Shown piece after piece: positions 1-51,693 of a stretch of DNA of 64,000 bases (position 1 is the first letter of the stretch; each line of letters opens with the position of its first letter). Origin of the DNA: Escherichia phage vB_EcoM_I14.1; sequence record PP892526.1. One strand, 5' to 3'. Below the pieces are notes generated by a model. That model did not search any database. It had not been told where the DNA came from and was given only the letters and a program-made list of their open reading frames with translations. Both the position numbers and the translations under genes were made by a program.

Positions 1-29
1 GCCCCCTTAACATTTTCTTAACAATTTCT

Positions 30-580
30 TAACAACCCCTACATAGTTATGCTTGTTAGCAACTTGTTAGCCCCTTGTTAAATCTCTGTTAAAACCACGT
101 AAAAGCCTTGTAAGAGTCTTTAGCATAGCCTTTAAAGCCCCTGTAAAGCCCTATAAATAGCTTTCTGTATAGTTGGGGTGTAATTACTAGGGAGAGACTA
201 AAAAGAGCTTATAAGGAGCTATAGAAAGCTTTTAAGAGGGCTATTTAAAAGGTCACTAAGAAAGGAAAGGGAACGATAAGAAAAGAGATAGTGACCATGT
301 TAATAGCTTGTTAAAAAGATTAAACACTTGTTAGGAACTTGTTAATTATCTTAACAAAATAACTCTTTAAAATTAACTTGTTAGCTCTTGTTAGTCATCT
401 GTTAAGATTCTATAAAGACCATGTAGCAACTGTTAAGAAACTGTTACACCCTTGTTAGTTCTGTTAAGAATCTGTTAAGACCTCTGAAGAGATGTTAAGA
501 GGTTGTAAGAACTGTTAAGAGATTGTTAAGGATATTTTAAAATTCTGCAAAGGGGATGTTACAGGGATGTTAAGGGCTAC
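30..580 (+). repeat. array of about 30 same-orientation short direct repeats, consensus YTTGTTAR / CTGTTAAGA, mostly 10-13 bp apart
   Basis: Repeated cttgttag / ctgttaaga / gatgttaaga read directly, e.g. 62-70, 376-385, 429-438, 460-480, 491-531; no ORF in region. Confidence 0.85.
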
Positions 581-719
581 CAAGCAGATATACATCCTAA
601 TCAGATATTTTTGAGTTCCTTCAAAGACCCTAAAAAATGACTTGATAGTCCTATTTTATAAAAATTTTAAAATTCTGAATAATTACCTAAACAGTCTTCT
701 AAAAATACAGGCATAAACA

Positions 720-1080
720 GGCTTATAAGATACCTTGTTAGTACCGTGTTAGTCCTTGTGAGATAAGGTCTGTAAAGATATTCCTGTTAAGTTTGTTAAA
801 ACAGTCTATATAGAGGCTTAGTAATACCTAGTGAACACCTATAGAGGGTAACATAGCTGACATAGAGATTAAGAGGTGTATAGGGGCTTCTAAGAGGGTG
901 TAGAGGTGTGGTTAAGGTGATTGTATAGGTTGCTAAGAAGGCTTGTTAGAGGGCTTGTTAGAGGGCTATTTAGAAGGTTTATACAGAGTGACTATTAAGA
1001 CCACTAGATAGATACTAAGATACTATATAGTACTATATAACTATATAGAGAGTAAGATTAAGGAGGTTGTTAAGAAGGGT
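720..1080 (+). repeat. second degenerate repeat zone (ccttgttag, taagagg, gcttgttagaggg tandem copy, tatag/ctata tracts)
   Basis: Direct reading; gcttgttagagggcttgttagagggct at 941-967. Confidence 0.6.
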
Positions 1081-7621: not shown

Positions 7622-8212
7622 TTAAGCTTTGGTCTTAAGTAGGTTCTTAAGTTTTTTGAGATTCATGCTCTCGTCAAACTTAAAACCAAATCCATTGACA
7701 TAATCAATGAACTCGGATTTCTTACTAAGTGATAGTGCGTAGCTCATATCAAAGTTATTACTTGTTTCTGCGTCTGGACTAGAGTTCACATCAAATGAAA
7801 TTTCTGTAGGCTCTTGCTTGCTACTTCTCATATTATCAATCAACAGACAGGTATAGTTTGCTGGATAGAAGTTAACACTCCCATCAACATACCCATACTT
7901 ATTATTGTGAATAAGGCTGGAAAATACCTTAAGAAATGTTTCTGAGTCGTGGCATACAAGTTTGAATTGACTGCATTCTCCAAGAGCCACTAAAGAGTAA
8001 GGGCTTTCACTATCAATGTCATAGTTTGGGTTTGATGTTGTAACTGTCACACGCATCAGGTTATTGGCAATAGTCTTCTGCTTGAAAGAATTTGGAACAT
8101 AGTGAAGACCTCTATCACACTGATTAACTAACTCTTTCAATAGGTCATTTGCATATGGTGAATTAATTGATACAGAGCCATCACTATTATAATTAAAACT
8201 TACTGTTAACAT
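7622..8212 (-). CDS. hypothetical protein
   Basis: 196-aa ORF. Confidence 0.6.
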   Translation of the reverse strand: MLTVSFNYNSDGSVSINSPYANDLLKELVNQCDRGLHYVPNSFKQKTIANNLMRVTVTTSNPNYDIDSESPYSLVALGECSQFKLVCHDSETFLKVFSSLIHNNKYGYVDGSVNFYPANYTCLLIDNMRSSKQEPTEISFDVNSSPDAETSNNFDMSYALSLSKKSEFIDYVNGFGFKFDESMNLKKLKNLLKTKA

Positions 8213-8439
8213 TTTTCAGTTCTCCTGCGATTTATGATTTTGCTGCAATAGAGAAACGAAGTAAACTCACTGGAAGAAACCATCAAGTGCTGTTCACTAG
8301 ATTGAGCCATTGCCCTGAAATACATTCCAGTCAAAGCATCGTAGTGACTATTCTTTCCAATTGAGGTTATATAGCCATGACTCTTTGCAGTTTGATATAA
8401 ATCTATAATATCTGCGATTTCTAATTGGGAACTACACAT
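8206..8439 (-). CDS. hypothetical protein
   Basis: 77-aa ORF. Confidence 0.5.
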   Translation of the reverse strand: MCSSQLEIADIIDLYQTAKSHGYITSIGKNSHYDALTGMYFRAMAQSSEQHLMVSSSEFTSFLYCSKIINRRRTEKC

Positions 8440-8603
8440 AGATAATCCTCTTGTCTTCTGTAATTTTGAAAGAACAGGTACAGACCAATTTCAGAGGATG
8501 AATAGTAGAGTAACTCTACCCTTTTTGATTCCTTACAGTGATTGGTATTTTTACCTTTCTTCGGGTTGTTTGATTTTCTCATTAAGTCTCCTTTGTAGAA
8601 CAA
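8421..8603 (-). CDS. hypothetical protein
   Basis: 60-aa ORF, first gene of the leftward operon. Confidence 0.45.
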   Translation of the reverse strand: MFYKGDLMRKSNNPKKGKNTNHCKESKRVELLYYSSSEIGLYLFFQNYRRQEDYLCVVPN

Positions 8604-8678
8604 GGCAGACCTACAGCTTTAAGTAAGATGGTACAGTAATCCATACAACAAGTCAAGAACTATTGCAAGCTAAAAAAG

Positions 8679-8705
8679 TTGTTGACAAAGTACTTGACAA
8701 GGTGT
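8679..8705 (+). promoter_or_regulatory. conserved element GTTGACAA(A/T)GTACTTGACAAGGTGT (tandem TTGACAA) in a divergent intergenic region
   Basis: Near-identical 24-mer also at 51495-51520; both lie between divergently transcribed operons. Confidence 0.5.
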
Positions 8706-8831
8706 AGGCTTATAAATACTTAGAAGATAACTTAAAAGGTTCCTCTAAAAAGGCTATTTAAACAGATATCTTTCTGGATATCTATCTTTTATCTTAAAAG
8801 CCTTTTAAGAGGTCTTATAAGAGGCATACCA

Positions 8832-9203
8832 ATGAAAAACAGAACAAACAAAGGCCAGTTTAAAAAAGGCCAGTCTGGAAACCCATCTGGAAGACCAAAA
8901 GGCTCTCGTAACAAAAGCTCACTTGTAAAAGCTCAACTGACCATTGATAATTCTGCTGAGTTTGCTGCAAAGTTGTTTGAAGCGATTGTTACAAGGGACG
9001 CTGCTAAGCTTGCAGAGTTTGGTTTAAACACAGATGACGTAACCATCAAGAGCATGATTGAGGTCGGTAAAACTATCATGACTCACTCAGCAGGTGAGAT
9101 GAAAGCAATTGCAGCAGATACTAAGAAGACCCCTGATAATGGTGGTCAGTCACAGACAGATAACAAACCAACGTTCTCTGCTGTAGCGACTCTCAAAAAA
9201 TAA
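8832..9203 (+). CDS. hypothetical protein with N-terminal GNPSGRPKG motif
   Basis: 123-aa ORF with RBS; this basic motif is common in small phage proteins. Confidence 0.6.
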   Translation: MKNRTNKGQFKKGQSGNPSGRPKGSRNKSSLVKAQLTIDNSAEFAAKLFEAIVTRDAAKLAEFGLNTDDVTIKSMIEVGKTIMTHSAGEMKAIAADTKKTPDNGGQSQTDNKPTFSAVATLKK

Positions 9204-20891: not shown

Positions 20892-22238
20892 ATGAGTTCG
20901 AATATCTTCAGACTTGCTGATAGATTATTCAACCAACCTTTACTAGCCACTGAATCATTAGCTCACTCAGCAGCAACTTATGTGAATAACAGATTGCTGG
21001 GTGATGTCCAAGCAGCAGTAAACTTTGATAAACCTAAAGGTGAAGCAAGAAGTCTTTTAAAAGTAAAAGATGACATTGCTATTATCCCTATTATGGGTGG
21101 TTTAACTCATCGTATGACATTCATTGATGCAATGTGTACAGGTGGTTTAAGCTCTTATGAAGGTTTACGCAGAGGCTTTGACGAAGCTCTAGCAGATGAG
21201 TCAATCAAGACTATTGTTCTGCATATTGATTCTGGTGGTGGTGAAGCTTCAGGTTGCTTTGAATTAGCACGTCACATCATGGCTTCAAGAGGCCAAAAGA
21301 AAATTATTGCTTATGTAGATGAGTTCGCTTGTTCCGCTGCATATGCTCTTGCATCTTCTGCTGAAGAAATTATTGCATCACCAGATGCAGATGTTGGTTC
21401 TATTGGTGTAATCATGGTTCATCAGGAATTAACTAAGGCATTTGAAAAGAATGGCGTAACAATTAACGTCATCAAAGCTGGTGAGTTTAAAGGTATGGGT
21501 TCACCATTCCAAGCACTTTCAGAAGAAAGCAAAGAAAGACTTCAAAAGAGAATTAATGATACCTACGCAACCTTTACAGGTTTTGTAGCTGAATCGCGTA
21601 ATCTCTCTGAAGAAGCTGTAAAGAATACTGAGGCGAATGTTTATTCTGCTCAGGAAGCTCTTGAACTTGGTTTAATTAACTCAATCATGTCTCAAGATGA
21701 TTTCTTAAATTACTTACAAGGTTCTGAAGAGGCTCCTGTAAGTTTAAACGTTAACAATTCAGGTGAAGAAATGACTGAACAAGAAAAGCAAGAACTAGAA
21801 GCTTTGCGTCTTCAGGTTGCTCAAATGAAAGCTAAAGAACAGGAAGCTGCTTTGTCAGATTTGACTAATAAGATTTCTGCTTCTGCTGAAGCTTTTGGCT
21901 TTGATGCAAAAGAAGCTGCAACGACTATTTTAGGTGCTGGTCTTGATAACCCTCTGAGCGTTCTGTTTATGAATGCTATGGAAGGTGCTAACCAGAAACT
22001 TAATGAAACTATCGCGTCCCATGCTTCTGCAATGGAAGAAAAAGAATCAGAAATTACCAAGCTGAAAGAAACTGCTGGTGCTGTTCTTGAACATTCCAAC
22101 GCTATGGAAGAAGTGGGTAATGACGGCGAAGCTGATTTGGTTGAAGAAGAAAAAGAACCAGCTAAGAATGCTTCCGAAGACACCGCTGAACAACGCAAAC
22201 TGGCTCTCCAGAATGCTCTAAAATCTCTTATCAAATAA
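20892..22238 (+). CDS. prohead protease (S49/ClpP-like) fused to scaffold-like domain
   Basis: N-terminal IPIMGG..HIDSGGGEASG..YVDEFACSAAYALAS peptidase motifs; C-terminal 150 aa coiled-coil, acidic. Confidence 0.75.
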   Translation: MSSNIFRLADRLFNQPLLATESLAHSAATYVNNRLLGDVQAAVNFDKPKGEARSLLKVKDDIAIIPIMGGLTHRMTFIDAMCTGGLSSYEGLRRGFDEALADESIKTIVLHIDSGGGEASGCFELARHIMASRGQKKIIAYVDEFACSAAYALASSAEEIIASPDADVGSIGVIMVHQELTKAFEKNGVTINVIKAGEFKGMGSPFQALSEESKERLQKRINDTYATFTGFVAESRNLSEEAVKNTEANVYSAQEALELGLINSIMSQDDFLNYLQGSEEAPVSLNVNNSGEEMTEQEKQELEALRLQVAQMKAKEQEAALSDLTNKISASAEAFGFDAKEAATTILGAGLDNPLSVLFMNAMEGANQKLNETIASHASAMEEKESEITKLKETAGAVLEHSNAMEEVGNDGEADLVEEEKEPAKNASEDTAEQRKLALQNALKSLIK

Positions 22239-43271: not shown

Positions 43272-43571
43272 TTAATCTGCCAACCTTAAATTAAAATTAA
43301 CACCAAATTTTTCACATACTTCCAACATAAACTTAAGAGAAACATTACCAGTGAGATTGATTATGTTGGATACACGAGACTGAGAGATACCACAAATTTT
43401 AGCAACTTGCTCTTGAGAAAGGCCTCTGGATTTAATCTCTCTCTTAAAACGATGTGCAACGAAGTCTCTCATTTCGTCTACATCCATTGGACAAATATAA
43501 CTCTCCATTTCAGCCTCTCTGTCAGCCTCCCAATCATCTTGTGGAGCATAAGGGTCAAAAACCTCATTCAT
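43272..43571 (-). CDS. helix-turn-helix DNA-binding protein (XRE-like)
   Basis: LSQEQVAKICGISQSRVSNI motif; ATG at 43571 removes overlap with upstream gene. Confidence 0.6.
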   Translation of the reverse strand: MNEVFDPYAPQDDWEADREAEMESYICPMDVDEMRDFVAHRFKREIKSRGLSQEQVAKICGISQSRVSNIINLTGNVSLKFMLEVCEKFGVNFNLRLAD

Positions 43572-48675: not shown

Positions 48676-48736
48676 GTGACCTCCTATACAAGATACAGTA
48701 TAAGGTACTCTTCCATGAGCACCTTGTCAATATTAA

Positions 48737-51436
48737 TTAGTGTACTTCAAGCCAGCTTTTACCAACCTTACCAGTACCTGTTACAAGTGTTTCTTTCTTA
48801 AGACCTAAGTTCTTAGAAGCTTGCCCATAATACCAGTCAGTAACTGCTTTCACTTCTGCCGTCATACTTTCTGGACATTCCCAACTCGTTTCATCGTGAT
48901 ATGCGCAGAGCAAGCGAGCACCAATAGCTGGTTGACGACCATTCAACTTCATCAAACCTTCGTCAATCATACGACGACAAGCAAGGTTAATTGCCTCATT
49001 TTGAATCTGAGCCTCTGAACCCATCAAAAGATAGTTCAACAGTTTGTGTGGAGATTTACACCACAACCAAGCTCCAGCAACCTTTACAAAACCCCCTTTA
49101 GAGATTGCAGCAGTCTTACCAAACACCTCTTCAAGTGCTTTTTTAGTCGCTTTGTAGTCAGCTTCCAAGTCATCAAGCAGCTTCTTAATTTTAGGCAAAC
49201 GAATAAAGTAAGTCTGTTTAGTCAGTGCACCTTCCTGAGTAGTTGCAGCTTTAATCGTCTTAGCAAACTTCTCATCACCTGCACCGAACAGCAGTGCATA
49301 GATACCATTCTTAGCTTTCTTACGACCCTTACTAATCTCATGAAGAAGATTCTCATCCTGAGTAGCTCGGCAAGTCAAGATATCCTGCTCATCATTCAAG
49401 CTAAAGTAAATACTGTTCAGTGTGTGTGCATCAGTCCCTGAATAGACAACGTAAAGGTCATTCTCAGAGTCATAGCGTAGGTACTTATCAATCTCTGGAT
49501 TGAGGTACTCATCAAAGTGTTTGCAGTAATAGCGTCCATCTTCTTGACGAATAAACTCAATCTCTTCTTTACCTTGCGTTACCGCTTTGGTGAAGTCTTT
49601 GTCACCCATAAAGTTACAAAGAAGAACTAGCTGGGCTGAGTTCATGTCTACAGAGACAACGTTAGTACCTTCTTCACAAATCCACACTGCCCTCATTGGT
49701 TCCCCATAGACAGCAGCACCAGACGGTACGTTTACAATACCATACTGTGTCATACGCCCAGTTGAAGTACCAAATACCATTGCACCAGCACTAAGGCGAC
49801 CATCAGGACGAATCTGGTTCAGCCAACCTTTTTCATCATCCTTTGAGTTCTCAATAGTTCTGCGTCGGTGCATCAAAGTATAGTACTTAGCAATCTTCTG
49901 TCCAAGCTCACCTTCAATCGTATCATAAGATGATTCAGTAAGCTTTGGTGAAGTCCTAATCAGACAAGGTTCAAGTAAATCTGTGTACTTCTTCACAGAC
50001 CAGTTATGCTCAATGTACTGGACACCTTCATGTTCAACATAACTCAACCCACACCGTTCAACCATCTCCTGCCACTTAGGATGCTTTGTAATCATCTTTT
50101 TGTTGTCTTTGAAACGACAAACTTTGACAGGGCGACCGTCTGAATCTTTCTTGTAGTTCCAGTCATCTGGAATCCAACCAACTGATTTCAAATAGTCTTT
50201 AACAACTGCTACCTGAGTCATACGAGAAACTTCGAACTCAATTGGTGTATATGGTGCATCAATCAAACCTGTGTAGCGACTTGACTCAAGCTCAAAGTGG
50301 TTAACAACATGGCTGTTATAGTACTTCACAGTTTTAACTGTTTTTACTGGCTTCCAATCTTTGCATTTCTTACCAATCTTTGCATTCAACTCATTGCAAA
50401 TTGCACGAGCATCCTTCATTGCTACAAAACCTTCCTTGTACTCTTCACCAGTTACAGAGTTGGTTGGTGTATAGCAATTCCGCTTTTCAATGTTAAAAAT
50501 CTTTGTAGTTGGCTTACCAAATGGCTTGATTTCATATGTCTGCATCTCACCGTTACGTACCTGCTGACGATACTTTGTCTTAGGGTACTTGGTAATTCTC
50601 TTCAATCCATCTGCATGCCCGAATGCTTCAACATACTCATTCCAAGCTTTTGCAAACTCTTCTCCAGTGACTTTACCTTTGGTCTTAATAGTTGGTGGAA
50701 GGTGTGGTTCAACTTCTGAAGCAAGCTCATTAGTCAACTTGTCAAGTTCCTTTACATGAAACTCCATAAGTTCTTTATCAGCTTTCCAACCATTGATAGC
50801 TTGTTGACTCATCCAGAAAGATGTTTCTTTAGCTCGCATGTAGGTTTCATAAGTATCTACGCCACACTTCTTCAGCTTGAGATATTCATTATCCAGTGCG
50901 CGTTTAGTTTTGGCGTTAATACGGATATCTTCTACAACACGAGTGAAGATTTCTGCATTCCACACACCCCAATGTTCAATCTCTGGTTTACGTACACCAA
51001 CACGAGCACCCCATGCTGCCAAGCCATGAGCGCCTTTATAGCCTTTTGGAGTTGGTCTATCCATCCACTGAACACGAGACTGGATAAGAGAATCCTGAAA
51101 GAAATTACTCCACGGCTTACACTTTGGATTATCAAAGTTCCACAAATCAGGTGCAATGTGATTGAAAACCCACCAGTCATATCCCAGACCATTATGGATG
51201 CAAAGTCGTTTTGCCTTTAACGCAAACTCAACACCTTCACGCAAGCCACCCTTAATGTACTTGGTATACTTGTGACCGAGGATAGGTTCATCTGTAAAGA
51301 CCCATACAGGCGGCTCTTCATCGTCAGATTTATAGTCTGCGAAAGCCATTACGTGCACTTTAGTGAACTCAAGGAGTAAACCATCAGTTTCTGTATCACC
51401 AACTAAATGTAAGTTTTTAAAATCTACGTTTTCCAT
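48737..51436 (-). CDS. DNA polymerase, family A, with 3'-5' exonuclease domain
   Basis: Exo motif LVGDTETDGL; motif B KNGIYALLFGAG; motif C YHDE; ATG at 51436 with GGAGT RBS. Confidence 0.85.
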   Translation of the reverse strand: MENVDFKNLHLVGDTETDGLLLEFTKVHVMAFADYKSDDEEPPVWVFTDEPILGHKYTKYIKGGLREGVEFALKAKRLCIHNGLGYDWWVFNHIAPDLWNFDNPKCKPWSNFFQDSLIQSRVQWMDRPTPKGYKGAHGLAAWGARVGVRKPEIEHWGVWNAEIFTRVVEDIRINAKTKRALDNEYLKLKKCGVDTYETYMRAKETSFWMSQQAINGWKADKELMEFHVKELDKLTNELASEVEPHLPPTIKTKGKVTGEEFAKAWNEYVEAFGHADGLKRITKYPKTKYRQQVRNGEMQTYEIKPFGKPTTKIFNIEKRNCYTPTNSVTGEEYKEGFVAMKDARAICNELNAKIGKKCKDWKPVKTVKTVKYYNSHVVNHFELESSRYTGLIDAPYTPIEFEVSRMTQVAVVKDYLKSVGWIPDDWNYKKDSDGRPVKVCRFKDNKKMITKHPKWQEMVERCGLSYVEHEGVQYIEHNWSVKKYTDLLEPCLIRTSPKLTESSYDTIEGELGQKIAKYYTLMHRRRTIENSKDDEKGWLNQIRPDGRLSAGAMVFGTSTGRMTQYGIVNVPSGAAVYGEPMRAVWICEEGTNVVSVDMNSAQLVLLCNFMGDKDFTKAVTQGKEEIEFIRQEDGRYYCKHFDEYLNPEIDKYLRYDSENDLYVVYSGTDAHTLNSIYFSLNDEQDILTCRATQDENLLHEISKGRKKAKNGIYALLFGAGDEKFAKTIKAATTQEGALTKQTYFIRLPKIKKLLDDLEADYKATKKALEEVFGKTAAISKGGFVKVAGAWLWCKSPHKLLNYLLMGSEAQIQNEAINLACRRMIDEGLMKLNGRQPAIGARLLCAYHDETSWECPESMTAEVKAVTDWYYGQASKNLGLKKETLVTGTGKVGKSWLEVH

Positions 51437-51494
51437 TTTTACTCCCTCTAAAATCATTAACCTCATACATTACTGCAAAAAATTATAAAAAGCA

Positions 51495-51520
51495 AGTTGA
51501 CAATGTACTTGACAAGGTGT
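51495..51520 (+). promoter_or_regulatory. second copy of conserved tandem-TTGACAA element
   Basis: AGTTGACAATGTACTTGACAAGGTGT, near-identical to 8679-8705. Confidence 0.5.
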
Positions 51521-51693
51521 TAATCTTTGCGAAGTGGGTTTTTACTTAAAAGGTTACTTAACAGTTTAACTATACAGATACTTTAAAACTCTTAAAAGAT
51601 TATTTAATAGCTTTTAAAAAGCTTTAAAGTATAACGTATAGAATACGTTAAGATAAAAGATTAAAACTTAATAGTTACTTAAAAGAGGCTTAC

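What the first reader, a model, noticed from the sequence alone, without database searches (positions are those of the whole stretch)
8679..8705. Conserved tandem-TTGACAA 24-mer in both divergent control regions
GTTGACAA(A/T)GTACTTGACAAGGTGT occurs at 8679-8705 and 51495-51520, each in an intergenic region between divergently transcribed operons. Two TTGACAA half-sites 12 bp apart could be overlapping -35 elements or a binding site for a regulator; the adjacent -10 candidates are weak, which would fit activator dependence. Both regions also share AT-rich motifs such as CTTAAAAG and GGCTATTTAA.
Basis: seen in the sequence. Interest (0 to 1): 0.5.

Follow-up and report, generated by a model that had tools for sequence, protein, structure and literature searches.

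The report
Phage promoters with doubled -35 box
The repeated 25-base motif is the core of the two rightward host-polymerase promoters of a Felix O1-type phage; the promoters are ordinary, but each carries a strictly conserved second "-35" box inside its spacer, a design that also turns up in unrelated marine T4-like phages and whose reader is unknown.

Summary
GTTGACAAWGTACTTGACAAGGTGT occurs exactly twice (8681-8705 and 51496-51520, + strand), once in each divergent junction of a Felixounavirus genome almost identical to Escherichia phage vB_EcoM_D4.

The upstream TTGACA is the -35 of a sigma-70-type promoter. It has the A-tract/GTTG context shared by about 12 promoters of this phage. A TAnnnT -10 follows at 17 nt (TAGGCT) or 18 nt (TGtTAATCT). 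It is homologous to the single TTGACA-N17/18-TAnnnT promoter at the same junctions in Erwinia and Pectobacterium relatives. Site 1 is the "P41" predicted for Felix O1 in 2010, and site 2 is annotated as a promoter in phage AYO145A.

The downstream TTGACA has no -10 partner, so it is not a second promoter. It is nevertheless invariant in three genera, while the bases between the hexamers vary freely. The same design (second hexamer 11-12 bp downstream, inside the spacer) is present in 52 of 57 distinct promoters next to the late-sigma gene of marine T4-like phages. In bacterial genomes it is near chance level.

My best inference is that polymerase's own sigma region 4 reads the second box. An operator for the phage's Cro-like HTH protein is the main rival. 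This is an ordinary promoter with an unusual, recurrent, unexplained spacer element.

The parts
8670..8681 (+). A-tract plus GTTG upstream of the -35 (CTAAAAAAGTTG), an UP-element-like context for the site-1 rightward promoter
   Evidence: The same AAAAA(A)GTTG context precedes most intergenic TTGACA promoters of this phage. It is conserved in the three-genus alignment.
8682..8687 (+). First TTGACA: the -35 hexamer of the site-1 rightward promoter (Felix O1 'P41')
   Evidence: A TAnnnT -10 lies 17 nt downstream. The hexamer is invariant in 3 genera and is homologous to the single -35 in Pectobacterium phage Wc4-1. It was predicted as P41 in PMC3185647.
8688..8692 (+). Variable bases between the two hexamers (AAGTA)
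   Evidence: These bases vary between genera (AAGTA, AAGCA, AATGA, TTCCT) and within Felixounavirus. They vary independently of site 2.
8693..8700 (+). Second hexamer with flanks (CTTGACAA), embedded in the spacer at about -24 to -17
   Evidence: Invariant in 3 genera and in 19 unbiased IMG/VR instances. No -10 lies 16-18 nt downstream.
8701..8704 (+). GGTG, with a conserved TG next to the -10
   Evidence: GGTG, GCTG or CGTG in the 3 genera and GGTA in Felix O1. The T4-like promoters have the same TG.
8705..8710 (+). -10 hexamer TAGGCT of the site-1 rightward promoter; predicted start near 8717-8718
   Evidence: TAG(G/C/T)(C/A)T is conserved at 17 nt from the first hexamer and is TAGTAT in phage KMM4. 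Pectobacterium phage Arno162 uses TAGGCT as its -10 at the site-2 junction. The start site is inferred, not mapped.
8730..8741 (+). ACTTAAAAGGTT box in the leader, in register with site 2
   Evidence: An exact 12-mer is shared 25-26 nt after the motif at both sites. It belongs to the CTTAA(A/C)AG family enriched in the leaders.
8628..8656 (-). Site-1 leftward promoter TTGACT-N17-TACCAT, back to back with the rightward one
   Evidence: Found by the promoter scan. It is invariant across 3 genera. The same TACCAT -10 occurs in Pectobacterium phage Wc4-1.
51485..51496 (+). A-tract context (ATAAAAAGCAAG) upstream of the site-2 -35; it overlaps the leftward -35 on the other strand
   Evidence: AAAAAGCAAG is invariant in 3 genera.
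51497..51502 (+). First TTGACA: the -35 hexamer of the site-2 rightward promoter
   Evidence: TGtTAATCT lies at 18 nt. The hexamer is invariant. It is annotated as a promoter in AYO145A, NC_028825 65801-65830. It is homologous to the single TTGACA-N17-TACATT/TAGGCT in Erwinia and Pectobacterium phages.
51508..51515 (+). Second hexamer with flanks (CTTGACAA), inside the spacer
   Evidence: Invariant in 3 genera and in 31 unbiased instances. The hexamer 17 nt downstream is AAGTGG, which is not a -10.
51516..51526 (+). GGTGT plus the -10 TAATCT (an extended -10, TGtTAATCT); predicted start near 51533
   Evidence: TA(A/G)TCT preceded by TG(T/G) is conserved in 3 genera. The start site is inferred.
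51544..51555 (+). ACTTAAAAGGTT leader box
51467..51495 (-). Site-2 leftward (DNA polymerase) promoter TTGCTT-N17-TAATGT; its -35 is 1 bp from the rightward -35
   Evidence: TTGCTT is invariant, the -10 varies as TA(A/G)(T/G)GT and the spacer varies. This is inferred from conservation only.
48702..48730 (-). Internal promoter TTGACAAGGTG...N17...TACCTT after the DNA polymerase gene; it shares the TTGACAAGGTG half of the motif
43272..43571 (-). Gene for a 99-aa Cro/C1-type HTH protein, the only candidate phage regulator
   Evidence: Pfam HTH_3, E=3e-11. Found in Felixounavirus, Suspvirus and Mooglevirus only.

Best explanation
The 25-mer is the -35 hexamer plus the first two thirds of the spacer of the two rightward promoters used by the host RNA polymerase-sigma-70 holoenzyme. 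Each sits back to back with a leftward promoter in one of the phage's two divergent control regions.

Well supported: the upstream TTGACA, preceded by an A-tract and GTTG, is the -35. The -10 is TAGGCT at 17 nt (site 1) and TGtTAATCT at 18 nt (site 2). Transcription should start near 8717 and 51533 and run through AT-rich leaders of about 115 and 160 nt into the DUF5681/TROVE-like genes and the replication/nucleotide-metabolism operon.

Also well supported: the downstream CTTGACAA is not the -35 of a second promoter. It is a separately selected element embedded in the spacer at about -24 to -17. It was added in the common ancestor of Felixounavirus, Suspvirus and Mooglevirus.

Inferred: because the conserved unit is exactly the sigma region 4 consensus, and the same design evolved in unrelated T4-like phages, the second box is most likely read by polymerase's own sigma region 4. 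When the enzyme has moved 11-12 bp forward, carrying about 12 nt of RNA and with region 4 still attached, region 4 would face the second box. This would hold or pause the early complex and so tune escape or sigma retention. That would give these two promoters kinetics different from the phage's plain early promoters.
For: The motif is exact and non-random and lies in both divergent junctions.

Promoter family: all intergenic TTGAC[AT] sites share an A-tract, GTTG, TTGACA, N16-18 and TAnnnT, and the first hexamer of both sites fits this.

Three-genus alignments show both hexamers invariant, the bases between them variable, and a -10 of TAGNNT at 17 nt or TGnTA(A/G)TCT at 18 nt from the first hexamer.

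Erwinia and Pectobacterium Ounavirinae have a single TTGACA-N17/18-TACATT, TAGGCT or TACCCT at the homologous junctions.

Earlier independent predictions exist: Felix O1 P41 and the AYO145A promoter feature.

There is no -10 behind the second hexamer.

In unbiased IMG/VR samples with the spacer left free, CTTGACAAGGT is unchanged in 19 of 19 and 31 of 31 instances.

In marine T4-like phages, 74 of 80 gp55 loci have the promoter. Of 57 distinct sequences, 52 carry an exact second TTGAC in the spacer at period 11 (28) or 12 (24). The first hexamer is always 17 nt from the -10. The information content of the second hexamer equals that of the first, and its 7th base is free.

The design is near chance level in 596 Gb of bacterial genomes, with 13 hits.

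Precedent: sigma-70 region 4 causes an early pause at +14/+15 of phage 82 PR' through a -35-like element, possible only while the RNA is shorter than about 15 nt (PMC3326312).

Felix O1 RT-PCR: genes 41, 42 and 96-99 peak at 25 min, whereas genes 45, 46, 48 and 49, which lie behind plain promoters, peak at 5 min.
Against: No transcription start has been mapped for any Felix O1-type phage, so the promoter assignment rests on sequence and conservation only.

The -10 hexamers match only 3 of 6 consensus positions, and the generic scan did not list either rightward promoter.

There is no -10-like element in the first transcribed bases, as classical sigma-dependent pauses have, so a pause would depend on region 4 alone.

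The region 4 recapture step is inferred from geometry and one literature precedent, and I could not read the primary papers.

The T4-like promoters have strong -10 hexamers and an antisense position, so their second box may serve a different purpose.

The co-distribution with the HTH protein, and a tandem TTGACAA array in front of a gene for a Fic-family protein with a possible DNA-binding C-terminal region in candidate-phyla MAGs, fit a protein operator equally well.
Confidence: 0.55

Rival explanations
1. The tandem TTGACAA pair is the operator of the phage's own Cro/C1-type HTH protein (gene at 43272-43571, - strand). Because TTGnCAA is nearly self-complementary, the direct repeat is also a 19-bp pseudo-palindrome. 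A dimer bound there would cover the -35 and spacer and switch both rightward promoters down, or modulate them, after early expression.
For: An HTH_3 protein is present. tblastn finds it in about 260 Felixounavirus, Suspvirus and Mooglevirus records and in no Erwinia or Pectobacterium Ounavirinae, although two neighbouring proteins do find those phages. This matches the distribution of the second hexamer. No regulator is annotated in the syntenic block of Erwinia phage Fifi318. The reverse strand matches the tandem pattern with only 2 mismatches. The genes behind these promoters peak later than those behind plain promoters.
Against: The co-distribution amounts to one phylogenetic event. The conserved unit equals the sigma-70 -35 consensus. 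In Mooglevirus site 1 the first unit is TTGACAT, which breaks the palindrome. The same architecture is conserved in unrelated marine T4-like phages with a free 7th base and with two different periods, 11 and 12 bp, which a dimeric operator should not tolerate without co-evolution. A short divergent HTH could have been missed by tblastn in the Erwinia phages.
Confidence: 0.2
2. Two overlapping sigma-70 promoters (P1 and P2), each with its own -35, start transcription 12 nt apart.
For: Both hexamers are perfect TTGACA, and the second has the better extended context (CTTGACAA). In some unrelated contigs from the scan, the downstream hexamer of such a pair is the one with a -10 at 16-17 nt (L074, L094, L118).
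Against: At 16-18 nt from the second hexamer the sequences are ATACTT/TACTTA/ACTTAG (site 1) and GAAGTG/AAGTGG/AGTGGG (site 2). None has A at position 2 together with T at position 6, and a 1-nt insertion in Suspvirus shifts the register. In the T4-like set the second hexamer shifts by 1 bp between lineages without any downstream element shifting with it. Distant relatives manage with one hexamer.
Confidence: 0.07
3. The second hexamer has no function of its own. It is a relic of a 12-bp duplication or of sequence exchange between the two control regions, kept because the regions as a whole are highly conserved.
For: Both intergenic regions are unusually conserved overall, with 93% and 90% mean column identity across genera, so invariance of 6-8 bases is less striking at site 2.
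Against: At site 1 the hexamer is an invariant island in a locally variable stretch: about half of the flanking positions differ between Felixounavirus and Mooglevirus. The bases between the hexamers vary independently at the two sites, so there is no ongoing sequence exchange. The independent recurrence, with full information content, in T4-like phages is hard to explain without selection.
Confidence: 0.08

Closest known systems
Predicted host-type promoters of Felix O1-like phages (Felix O1 'P41', Whichard et al. 2010, PMC3185647; promoter features in the vB_EcoM_AYO145A record NC_028825)
   Same: The same DNA. P41, TTGACA(N15)TATAGG at Felix O1 21515-21541, is site 1 read from the first hexamer. 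The AYO145A feature 65801-65830 is TTGACA-N18-TAATCT of site 2.
   Different: Both were pattern or neural-network predictions. Whichard et al. reported no promoter in the 96-97 region. Neither source noticed the second hexamer, its conservation, or that the two sites share it.
Strong early promoters of virulent coliphages (T4 early, T5, T7 A1-A3): consensus -35, A-rich upstream element, host sigma-70 holoenzyme (my own knowledge)
   Same: A perfect TTGACA, an A-tract at about -45 to -40, a 17-18 bp spacer, use of unmodified host polymerase, and a position at the head of early or middle transcription units.
   Different: Those promoters have no second -35 hexamer in the spacer and usually have better -10 hexamers.
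-35-like element used by sigma-70 region 4 in early elongation at lambdoid late promoters (82 PR' pause at +14/+15; lambda PR' TTGACT engaged with Q)
   Same: A second -35-type hexamer lies downstream of the promoter's own -35 and can only be reached by region 4 after the enzyme has moved. The time window (RNA shorter than about 15 nt, PMC3326312) fits an 11-12 bp offset.
   Different: Lambdoid sites combine it with a -10-like pause element in the transcribed region and a Q protein. Neither a -10-like element (tested, absent) nor a Q homologue (not tested) is evident here.
Tandem-hexamer promoter upstream of the late sigma factor gene (gp55) in marine T4-like myoviruses
   Same: A-tract, GTTG, TTGACA, N4-5, (C)TTGACA, N, TG, TAnnnT. 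The first hexamer is 17 nt from the -10 and the second is 11-12 bp downstream in the spacer. One instance (L096) matches a Felixounavirus site-1 promoter at 34 of 35 positions by BLAST.
   Different: It belongs to an unrelated phage family with different hosts. It has strong -10 hexamers (TATAGT) and points away from gp55, antisense to the preceding gene. Cultured relatives (HTVC008M, S-CAM3) have single hexamers.
Cro/CI-type operators overlapping early promoters of temperate phages (my own knowledge)
   Same: A 19-bp pseudo-symmetric site covers the -35 and spacer. It is present at two promoters, and an HTH_3 protein is encoded by the phage.
   Different: The symmetry is imperfect and is a by-product of a direct repeat. 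The phage is virulent. Binding is untested.

Membership tests
Sigma-70 (housekeeping) promoter | -35 hexamer close to TTGACA | tested here: met
   6/6 at 8682-8687 and 51497-51502; invariant in 3 genera.
Sigma-70 (housekeeping) promoter | -10 hexamer 16-18 bp downstream with A at position 2 and T at position 6 | tested here: met
   TAGGCT at 17 bp and TAATCT at 18 bp (with TGn). Only 3/6 overall, but T1, A2 and T6 are conserved across genera, and KMM4 has TAGTAT.
Sigma-70 (housekeeping) promoter | Correct position and orientation upstream of a transcription unit, and homology to promoters in relatives | tested here: met
   127 and 174 nt upstream of the first rightward genes. A single-hexamer promoter occupies the same junction in Erwinia and Pectobacterium phages.
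Sigma-70 (housekeeping) promoter | Mapped transcription start and dependence on the holoenzyme | not testable with these tools
   No start-site data found in the literature. RT-PCR only shows that the downstream genes are transcribed from 5 min and peak at 25 min.
Tandem overlapping promoters (P1/P2) | Each -35 has its own -10 at 16-18 bp | tested here: not met
   Behind the second hexamer lie TACTTA and AAGTGG. There is no conserved candidate in the alignments.
Cro/CI-type operator | Two-fold symmetric site of about 14-20 bp | tested here: inconclusive
   TTGACAA-N5-TTGACAA matches its own reverse complement with 2 mismatches. The symmetry is broken in Mooglevirus site 1 (TTGACAT).
Cro/CI-type operator | Cognate HTH protein encoded by the same genome and co-distributed with the site | tested here: met
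   An HTH_3 protein at 43272-43571, present only in the three genera that have the second hexamer. This is one evolutionary event only.
Cro/CI-type operator | Specific binding of the protein to the site | not testable with these tools
   Needs a gel-shift or footprinting experiment.
Sigma-dependent promoter-proximal pause site (lambdoid PR' type) | -10-like element in the initially transcribed region | tested here: not met
   12 bp downstream of the -10 lie TACTTA (no T at position 6) and AGTGGG.
Sigma-dependent promoter-proximal pause site (lambdoid PR' type) | -35-like element downstream of the promoter's -35 that region 4 can reach in early elongation | tested here: met
   A perfect CTTGACAA lies 12 bp downstream of the -35 at both sites. 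Whether it is used is untested.
Sigma-dependent promoter-proximal pause site (lambdoid PR' type) | Q-type antiterminator encoded by the phage | not tested
   Only 10 proteins near the sites were scanned against Pfam; none is Q-like.
T4 late promoter (TATAAATA) | TATAAATA at -10, repeated before late genes | tested here: not met
   TATAAATA overlaps site 1 at 8711, but only 4 + strand copies exist in 64 kb, none before structural genes, and it is absent at site 2.

The most novel reading that the evidence does not exclude
A second, perfectly conserved -35 hexamer placed 11-12 bp downstream inside the spacer is a distinct, phage-specific promoter module that arose independently in Felix O1-type and marine T4-like phages. 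It would let sigma region 4 re-engage the DNA after the polymerase has moved one helical turn. Alternatively, it would let a polymerase whose region 4 has been displaced by a phage factor still dock 5-6 bp from the -10. Either way it would create a built-in checkpoint that keeps these promoters active, or differently timed, when plain early promoters fade.
Probability: 0.25. Interest if true: 0.7.

Novelty: new variant of a known kind. Interest (0 to 1): 0.45.

Why it matters
Felix O1-type phages are widely used for Salmonella and E. coli typing and biocontrol. Yet the 2010 genome paper states that nobody knows how their transcription is timed, and they encode no polymerase and no known sigma-modifying factor. 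This work fixes the four promoters of the two divergent control regions. It also shows that the two rightward ones share a special feature that the phage's roughly ten other host-type promoters lack, which gives a concrete handle on early-versus-middle regulation. More generally, a spacer-embedded -35 box that is as conserved as the true -35, recurs in an unrelated phage family and is almost absent from bacterial genomes is not part of the textbook promoter. It can be tested directly with purified E. coli polymerase. If it controls escape or sigma retention, it would also be a useful part for synthetic promoters.

Tried and rejected
1. Known RNA family in the site-1 region: Rfam at a permissive threshold gave only a chance miRNA hit.

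2. Replication origin read from composition: cumulative GC skew has minima at about 8 kb and 51 kb, but these coincide with the switches in transcription direction, so they say nothing separate.

3. T4-type late promoter (TATAAATA at 8711): not repeated before late genes.

4. GGCTATTTAA as a motif shared by the two sites: it is at 239 and 8752 only.

5. A -10 partner for the second hexamer at 16-19 nt: none (and by eye).

6. Response-regulator boxes (PhoB and ArcA direct repeats, from memory): these need a 10-11 bp period and TGTCA/TGTTA units, whereas here the period is 12 bp. I did not pursue them.

7. Concerted evolution of the two sites: rejected, because the inter-hexamer bases differ between sites in 11 of 15 genomes.

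8. A general bacterial promoter form: rejected, with 13 hits in 596 Gb.

9. Several IMG/VR hits turned out to be coding coincidences. TTGACAAAGCACTTGACAAGGTG encodes VDKALDKV in L023, and the near-match in the phage's own prs gene is also coding.

10. A resemblance of leader boxes (CTCTTAAAAG) to lambda nut boxA rests on memory only and is weak in AT-rich DNA, so it is not claimed.

11. Literature: no start-site mapping or transcriptome for this phage group. The PhageMaP preprint on Bas63 has no promoter data. The primary papers on region 4 pausing (PMC3058920, PMC3274365) are not held.

12. My first flank-only scan for site 2 used one N too many and found nothing. It was repeated correctly.

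Full report
**Identity of the window.** The window is a Felix O1-type myovirus. Positions 8000-10000 are 100% identical to Escherichia phage vB_EcoM_D4 (PP886228.1) at the same coordinates, and about 250 Felixounavirus, Suspvirus and Mooglevirus records match. From position 11175 on, the window runs 4 nt behind the record. The annotation shows four transcription blocks:
- leftward genes up to 8439;
- rightward genes from 8832 (a DUF5681 protein, a TROVE-like protein, then tRNAs and structural genes up to about 40.6 kb);
- leftward genes from 40.7 kb to the DNA polymerase gene, whose start is at about 51.44-51.46 kb;
- rightward genes from 51694 (primase/helicase, ribonucleotide reductases and so on).

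The finding's two sites lie in the two divergent junctions.

**Check of the observation.** GTTGACAAWGTACTTGACAAGGTGT matches at 8681-8705 and 51496-51520, both on the + strand, and nowhere else even with three mismatches. No matches occur in shuffled sequence. The rest of the D4 genome has no further copy; a near-match inside the prs gene is coding. A half copy, TTGACAAGGTG, lies on the - strand at 48730-48720, where it serves as the -35 and spacer start of an internal promoter with TACCTT at 17 nt. Aligning the two regions shows a further exact block, ACTTAAAAGGTT, 25-26 nt after the motif, followed by ACAGATA. CTTAAAAG is enriched in both leaders. GGCTATTTAA is not shared: it occurs at 239 and 8752 only.

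**Which hexamer is the -35.** Three independent lines agree on the upstream one.
- *Promoter family.* Listing every intergenic TTGAC[AT] in the window reveals a family: an A-tract, usually GTTG, TTGACA, 16-18 nt, then TAnnnT. Its members are at 8682, 9216, 10719, 10810, 12237, 40004, 51497 and 56332 on the + strand, and at 48730, 46112, 44234 and 8656 on the - strand. The first hexamer of both sites has this context. The second has neither the context nor a -10: TACTTA and AAGTGG lie at 17 nt.
- *Three-genus alignments.* TAG(G/C/T)(C/A)T is conserved 17 nt after the first hexamer at site 1 and is TAGTAT in phage KMM4. TG(T/G)TA(A/G)TCT is conserved 18 nt after it at site 2.
- *Distant relatives.* More distant Ounavirinae have the same gene junctions with a single hexamer: Erwinia phages Fifi318 and vEam_PM_27 (TTGACA-N17-TACATT), and Pectobacterium phages Arno162 (TTGACA-N17-TAGGCT) and Wc4-1 (TTGACA-N18-TACCCT).

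The assignment agrees with earlier computer predictions. Felix O1 "P41", TTGACA(N15)TATAGG at 21515-21541, is site 1. The AYO145A record marks TTGACA-N18-TAATCT at site 2. The Felix O1 paper stated that nothing comparable was found between genes 96 and 97, and that temporal regulation is unknown.

**The leftward partners.**
- At site 1, TTGACT-N17-TACCAT (8656 down to 8628) is invariant in three genera and has the same -10 as in Wc4-1.
- At site 2, TTGCTT-N17-TA(A/G)(T/G)GT (51495 down to 51467) has an invariant -35 and a variable spacer.

Each junction is therefore a back-to-back pair of host-type promoters, with the -35 boxes 25 bp apart at site 1 and 1 bp apart at site 2.

**The second hexamer is the unusual part.**
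- It lies in the spacer, 5-6 bp before the -10.
- It is invariant at both sites in Felixounavirus, Suspvirus and Mooglevirus, together with the preceding C and the following A. The four to five bases between the hexamers change freely (AAGTA, AAGCA, AATGA, TTCCT; ATGTA, ATTCA, AATCA, AAGCA).
- I scanned IMG/VR with only the flanks specified and the whole spacer free. All 19 site-1 and all 31 site-2 instances kept CTTGACAAGGT; every difference fell between the hexamers or in the -10 region.
- In 15 contigs that hold both sites, the inter-hexamer bases differ between the sites in 11. So there is no ongoing sequence exchange, and those bases are not read. The near-identity of the two 25-mers in this particular phage is incidental.
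- Because the Erwinia and Pectobacterium relatives lack it, the second hexamer was added on the branch leading to the three enterobacterial genera.

**Recurrence elsewhere.**
- *Marine T4-like phages.* An IMG/VR scan for TTGACA-N5-CTTGACAA-NN-TG returned Felix-like contigs, coding coincidences (for example VDKALDKV in L023) and a large class of other contigs with the same promoter layout and good -10 hexamers. These are marine or freshwater T4-like myoviruses. The neighbouring genes are the late sigma factor gp55, gp47/gp46 and a helicase, and the gp55 DNA resembles that of cyanophages and Pelagibacter phage HTVC008M. The promoter abuts the gp55 start and points away from it.
- *Unbiased sample of that family.* To avoid circularity I collected 80 gp55 loci by protein similarity alone. 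Of these, 74 have TTGACN-N17-TAnnnT there. Of 57 distinct sequences, 52 carry an exact second TTGAC in the spacer, at a period of 11 bp (28) or 12 bp (24). The distance from the first hexamer to the -10 stays 17 bp. The information content of the second hexamer equals that of the first and exceeds that of the -10 interior, and its seventh base is free. The cultured relatives HTVC008M and S-CAM3 have single hexamers, so here too the second box is a lineage-specific addition.
- *Bacterial genomes.* The full pattern, including TAnnnT, occurs only 13 times in 596 Gb of bacterial genomes, which I judge to be about the chance expectation. Some of these are clearly real promoters, including three tandem CTTGACAATTAA units before a leaderless Fic-family gene in candidate-phyla MAGs.

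**Mechanism.** The promoter assignment is well supported. What follows is inference.

The conserved unit is exactly the sequence recognised by sigma-70 region 4. It recurs in unrelated phages with different hosts, and its offset tolerates 11 or 12 bp. The simplest reader is therefore the polymerase itself. When the enzyme has advanced 11-12 bp, region 4 is still attached and would face the second box. PMC3326312 summarises earlier work showing that region 4 causes a pause at +14/+15 of phage 82 PR' through a -35-like element, possible only while the RNA is shorter than about 15 nt. Such recapture could slow escape or prolong sigma retention.

Felix O1 RT-PCR is at least compatible with distinct kinetics. 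Genes 41, 42 and 96-99 are detectable early but peak at 25 min. Genes 45, 46, 48 and 49, which lie behind plain promoters in the tRNA region, peak at 5 min.

Against this reading, there is no -10-like element in the first transcribed bases, I could not read the primary pausing papers, and nothing has been measured.

**Main rival.** The phage encodes one Cro/C1-type HTH protein (43272-43571, - strand; Pfam HTH_3, E=3e-11). tblastn finds it in the three genera that have the second hexamer and in no Erwinia or Pectobacterium relative, although the two flanking-gene queries did reach those phages. Because TTGnCAA is nearly self-complementary, the direct repeat is also a 19-bp pseudo-palindrome. 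This is a single phylogenetic coincidence. The palindrome is broken in Mooglevirus site 1, and the T4-like recurrence argues for a general reader. I give this rival about 0.2. Two overlapping promoters and a functionless relic are less likely, for the reasons given under the rival explanations.

**Verdict.** The finding is a pair of ordinary host-type promoters that had already been predicted computationally. What is new is the demonstration that both carry a separately selected second -35 box in the spacer, that the box is derived within the subfamily, and that the same design is conserved in an unrelated phage family while being almost absent from bacteria. I rate it a new variant of a known kind, of moderate interest, and directly testable with purified polymerase.

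Noticed in passing
window 1-1033: A non-coding kilobase at the left edge is an array of short repeats. It has about 25 copies of TGTTA(A/G), against roughly 1 per kb elsewhere, as CTTGTTAG/CTGTTAAGA units at 10-11 bp and 31 bp periods, with three inverted copies (TCTTAACAA) at 6-35. Its complement, CTTAACAG, belongs to the same family as the CTTAA(A/C)AG boxes of the two leaders. It looks like a protein-binding (iteron-like) array; its function is unknown.
   Followed up: partly
window 8706-8831 and 51527-51693: The two rightward leaders are AT-rich, carry several CTTAA(A/C)AG boxes, and are more conserved across genera (about 90% DNA identity) than the proteins they precede (62-84% amino-acid identity). 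Erwinia and Pectobacterium relatives have a similar (T/G)AACAG...TTCTTTAAAG motif right after the promoter at both junctions. This suggests a conserved leader function.
   Followed up: partly
window 51635-51649: The hairpin or palindrome ACGTAT-AGA-ATACGT in the site-2 leader shows compensatory change in Mooglevirus (ATGTAT-AAC-ATACAT). Two pairs changed on both sides in 2 of 6 sequences.
   Followed up: partly
window 8764-8783 and 8793-8809: The site-1 leader holds an inverted repeat, AGATATC-N6-GATATCT, that is invariant in three genera. It also holds a perfect palindrome, CTTAAAAG-C-CTTTTAAG, immediately before the ribosome-binding site of the gene at 8832.
   Followed up: no
window 10711-10742: A 12-bp-stem hairpin (terminator t42/t43 of the Felix O1 paper) contains a promoter's -35 (TTGACA at 10719) inside its own stem. 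The terminator of the first rightward unit and the promoter of the tRNA cluster therefore overlap.
   Followed up: no
window 51434-51466: The DNA polymerase start is annotated at window 51457 in D4 and AYO145A, and the longest ORF starts at 51466. The ATG at 51436 is the one preceded by a good ribosome-binding site (AGAGGGAG), and it is the start used in the Citrobacter phage Michonne record.
   Followed up: partly
L141-L220 (IMG/VR marine T4-like contigs), about 20-90 nt upstream of gp55: A strong, conserved host-type promoter abuts the start of the late sigma factor gene and points away from it, antisense to the preceding same-strand gene. The first transcribed bases, (T/G)(A/G)TGT(C/T)CC, are also conserved. 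It might make an antisense or interfering RNA that delays gp55 expression.
   Followed up: partly
L229, L230, L232, L233 (candidate-phyla / Patescibacteria MAG contigs): Three tandem CTTGACAATTAA units at a 12-bp period precede a TATAAT, which is followed 6 nt later by an ATG. In L229 this ATG opens a Fic-family ORF (HPFEDGNGR motif) and implies a leaderless mRNA. It is another case of phased -35-like repeats.
   Followed up: partly
window 11175: The window lacks 4 nt (CGAC) relative to the D4 record inside a tRNA-rich stretch (TCGGCAGGTT|TCCTGCACC versus ...GGTTCGACTCCTGC...). This falls in what looks like a tRNA T-arm, so either the window or the record may carry an error, or this may be a pseudo-tRNA.
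   Followed up: no
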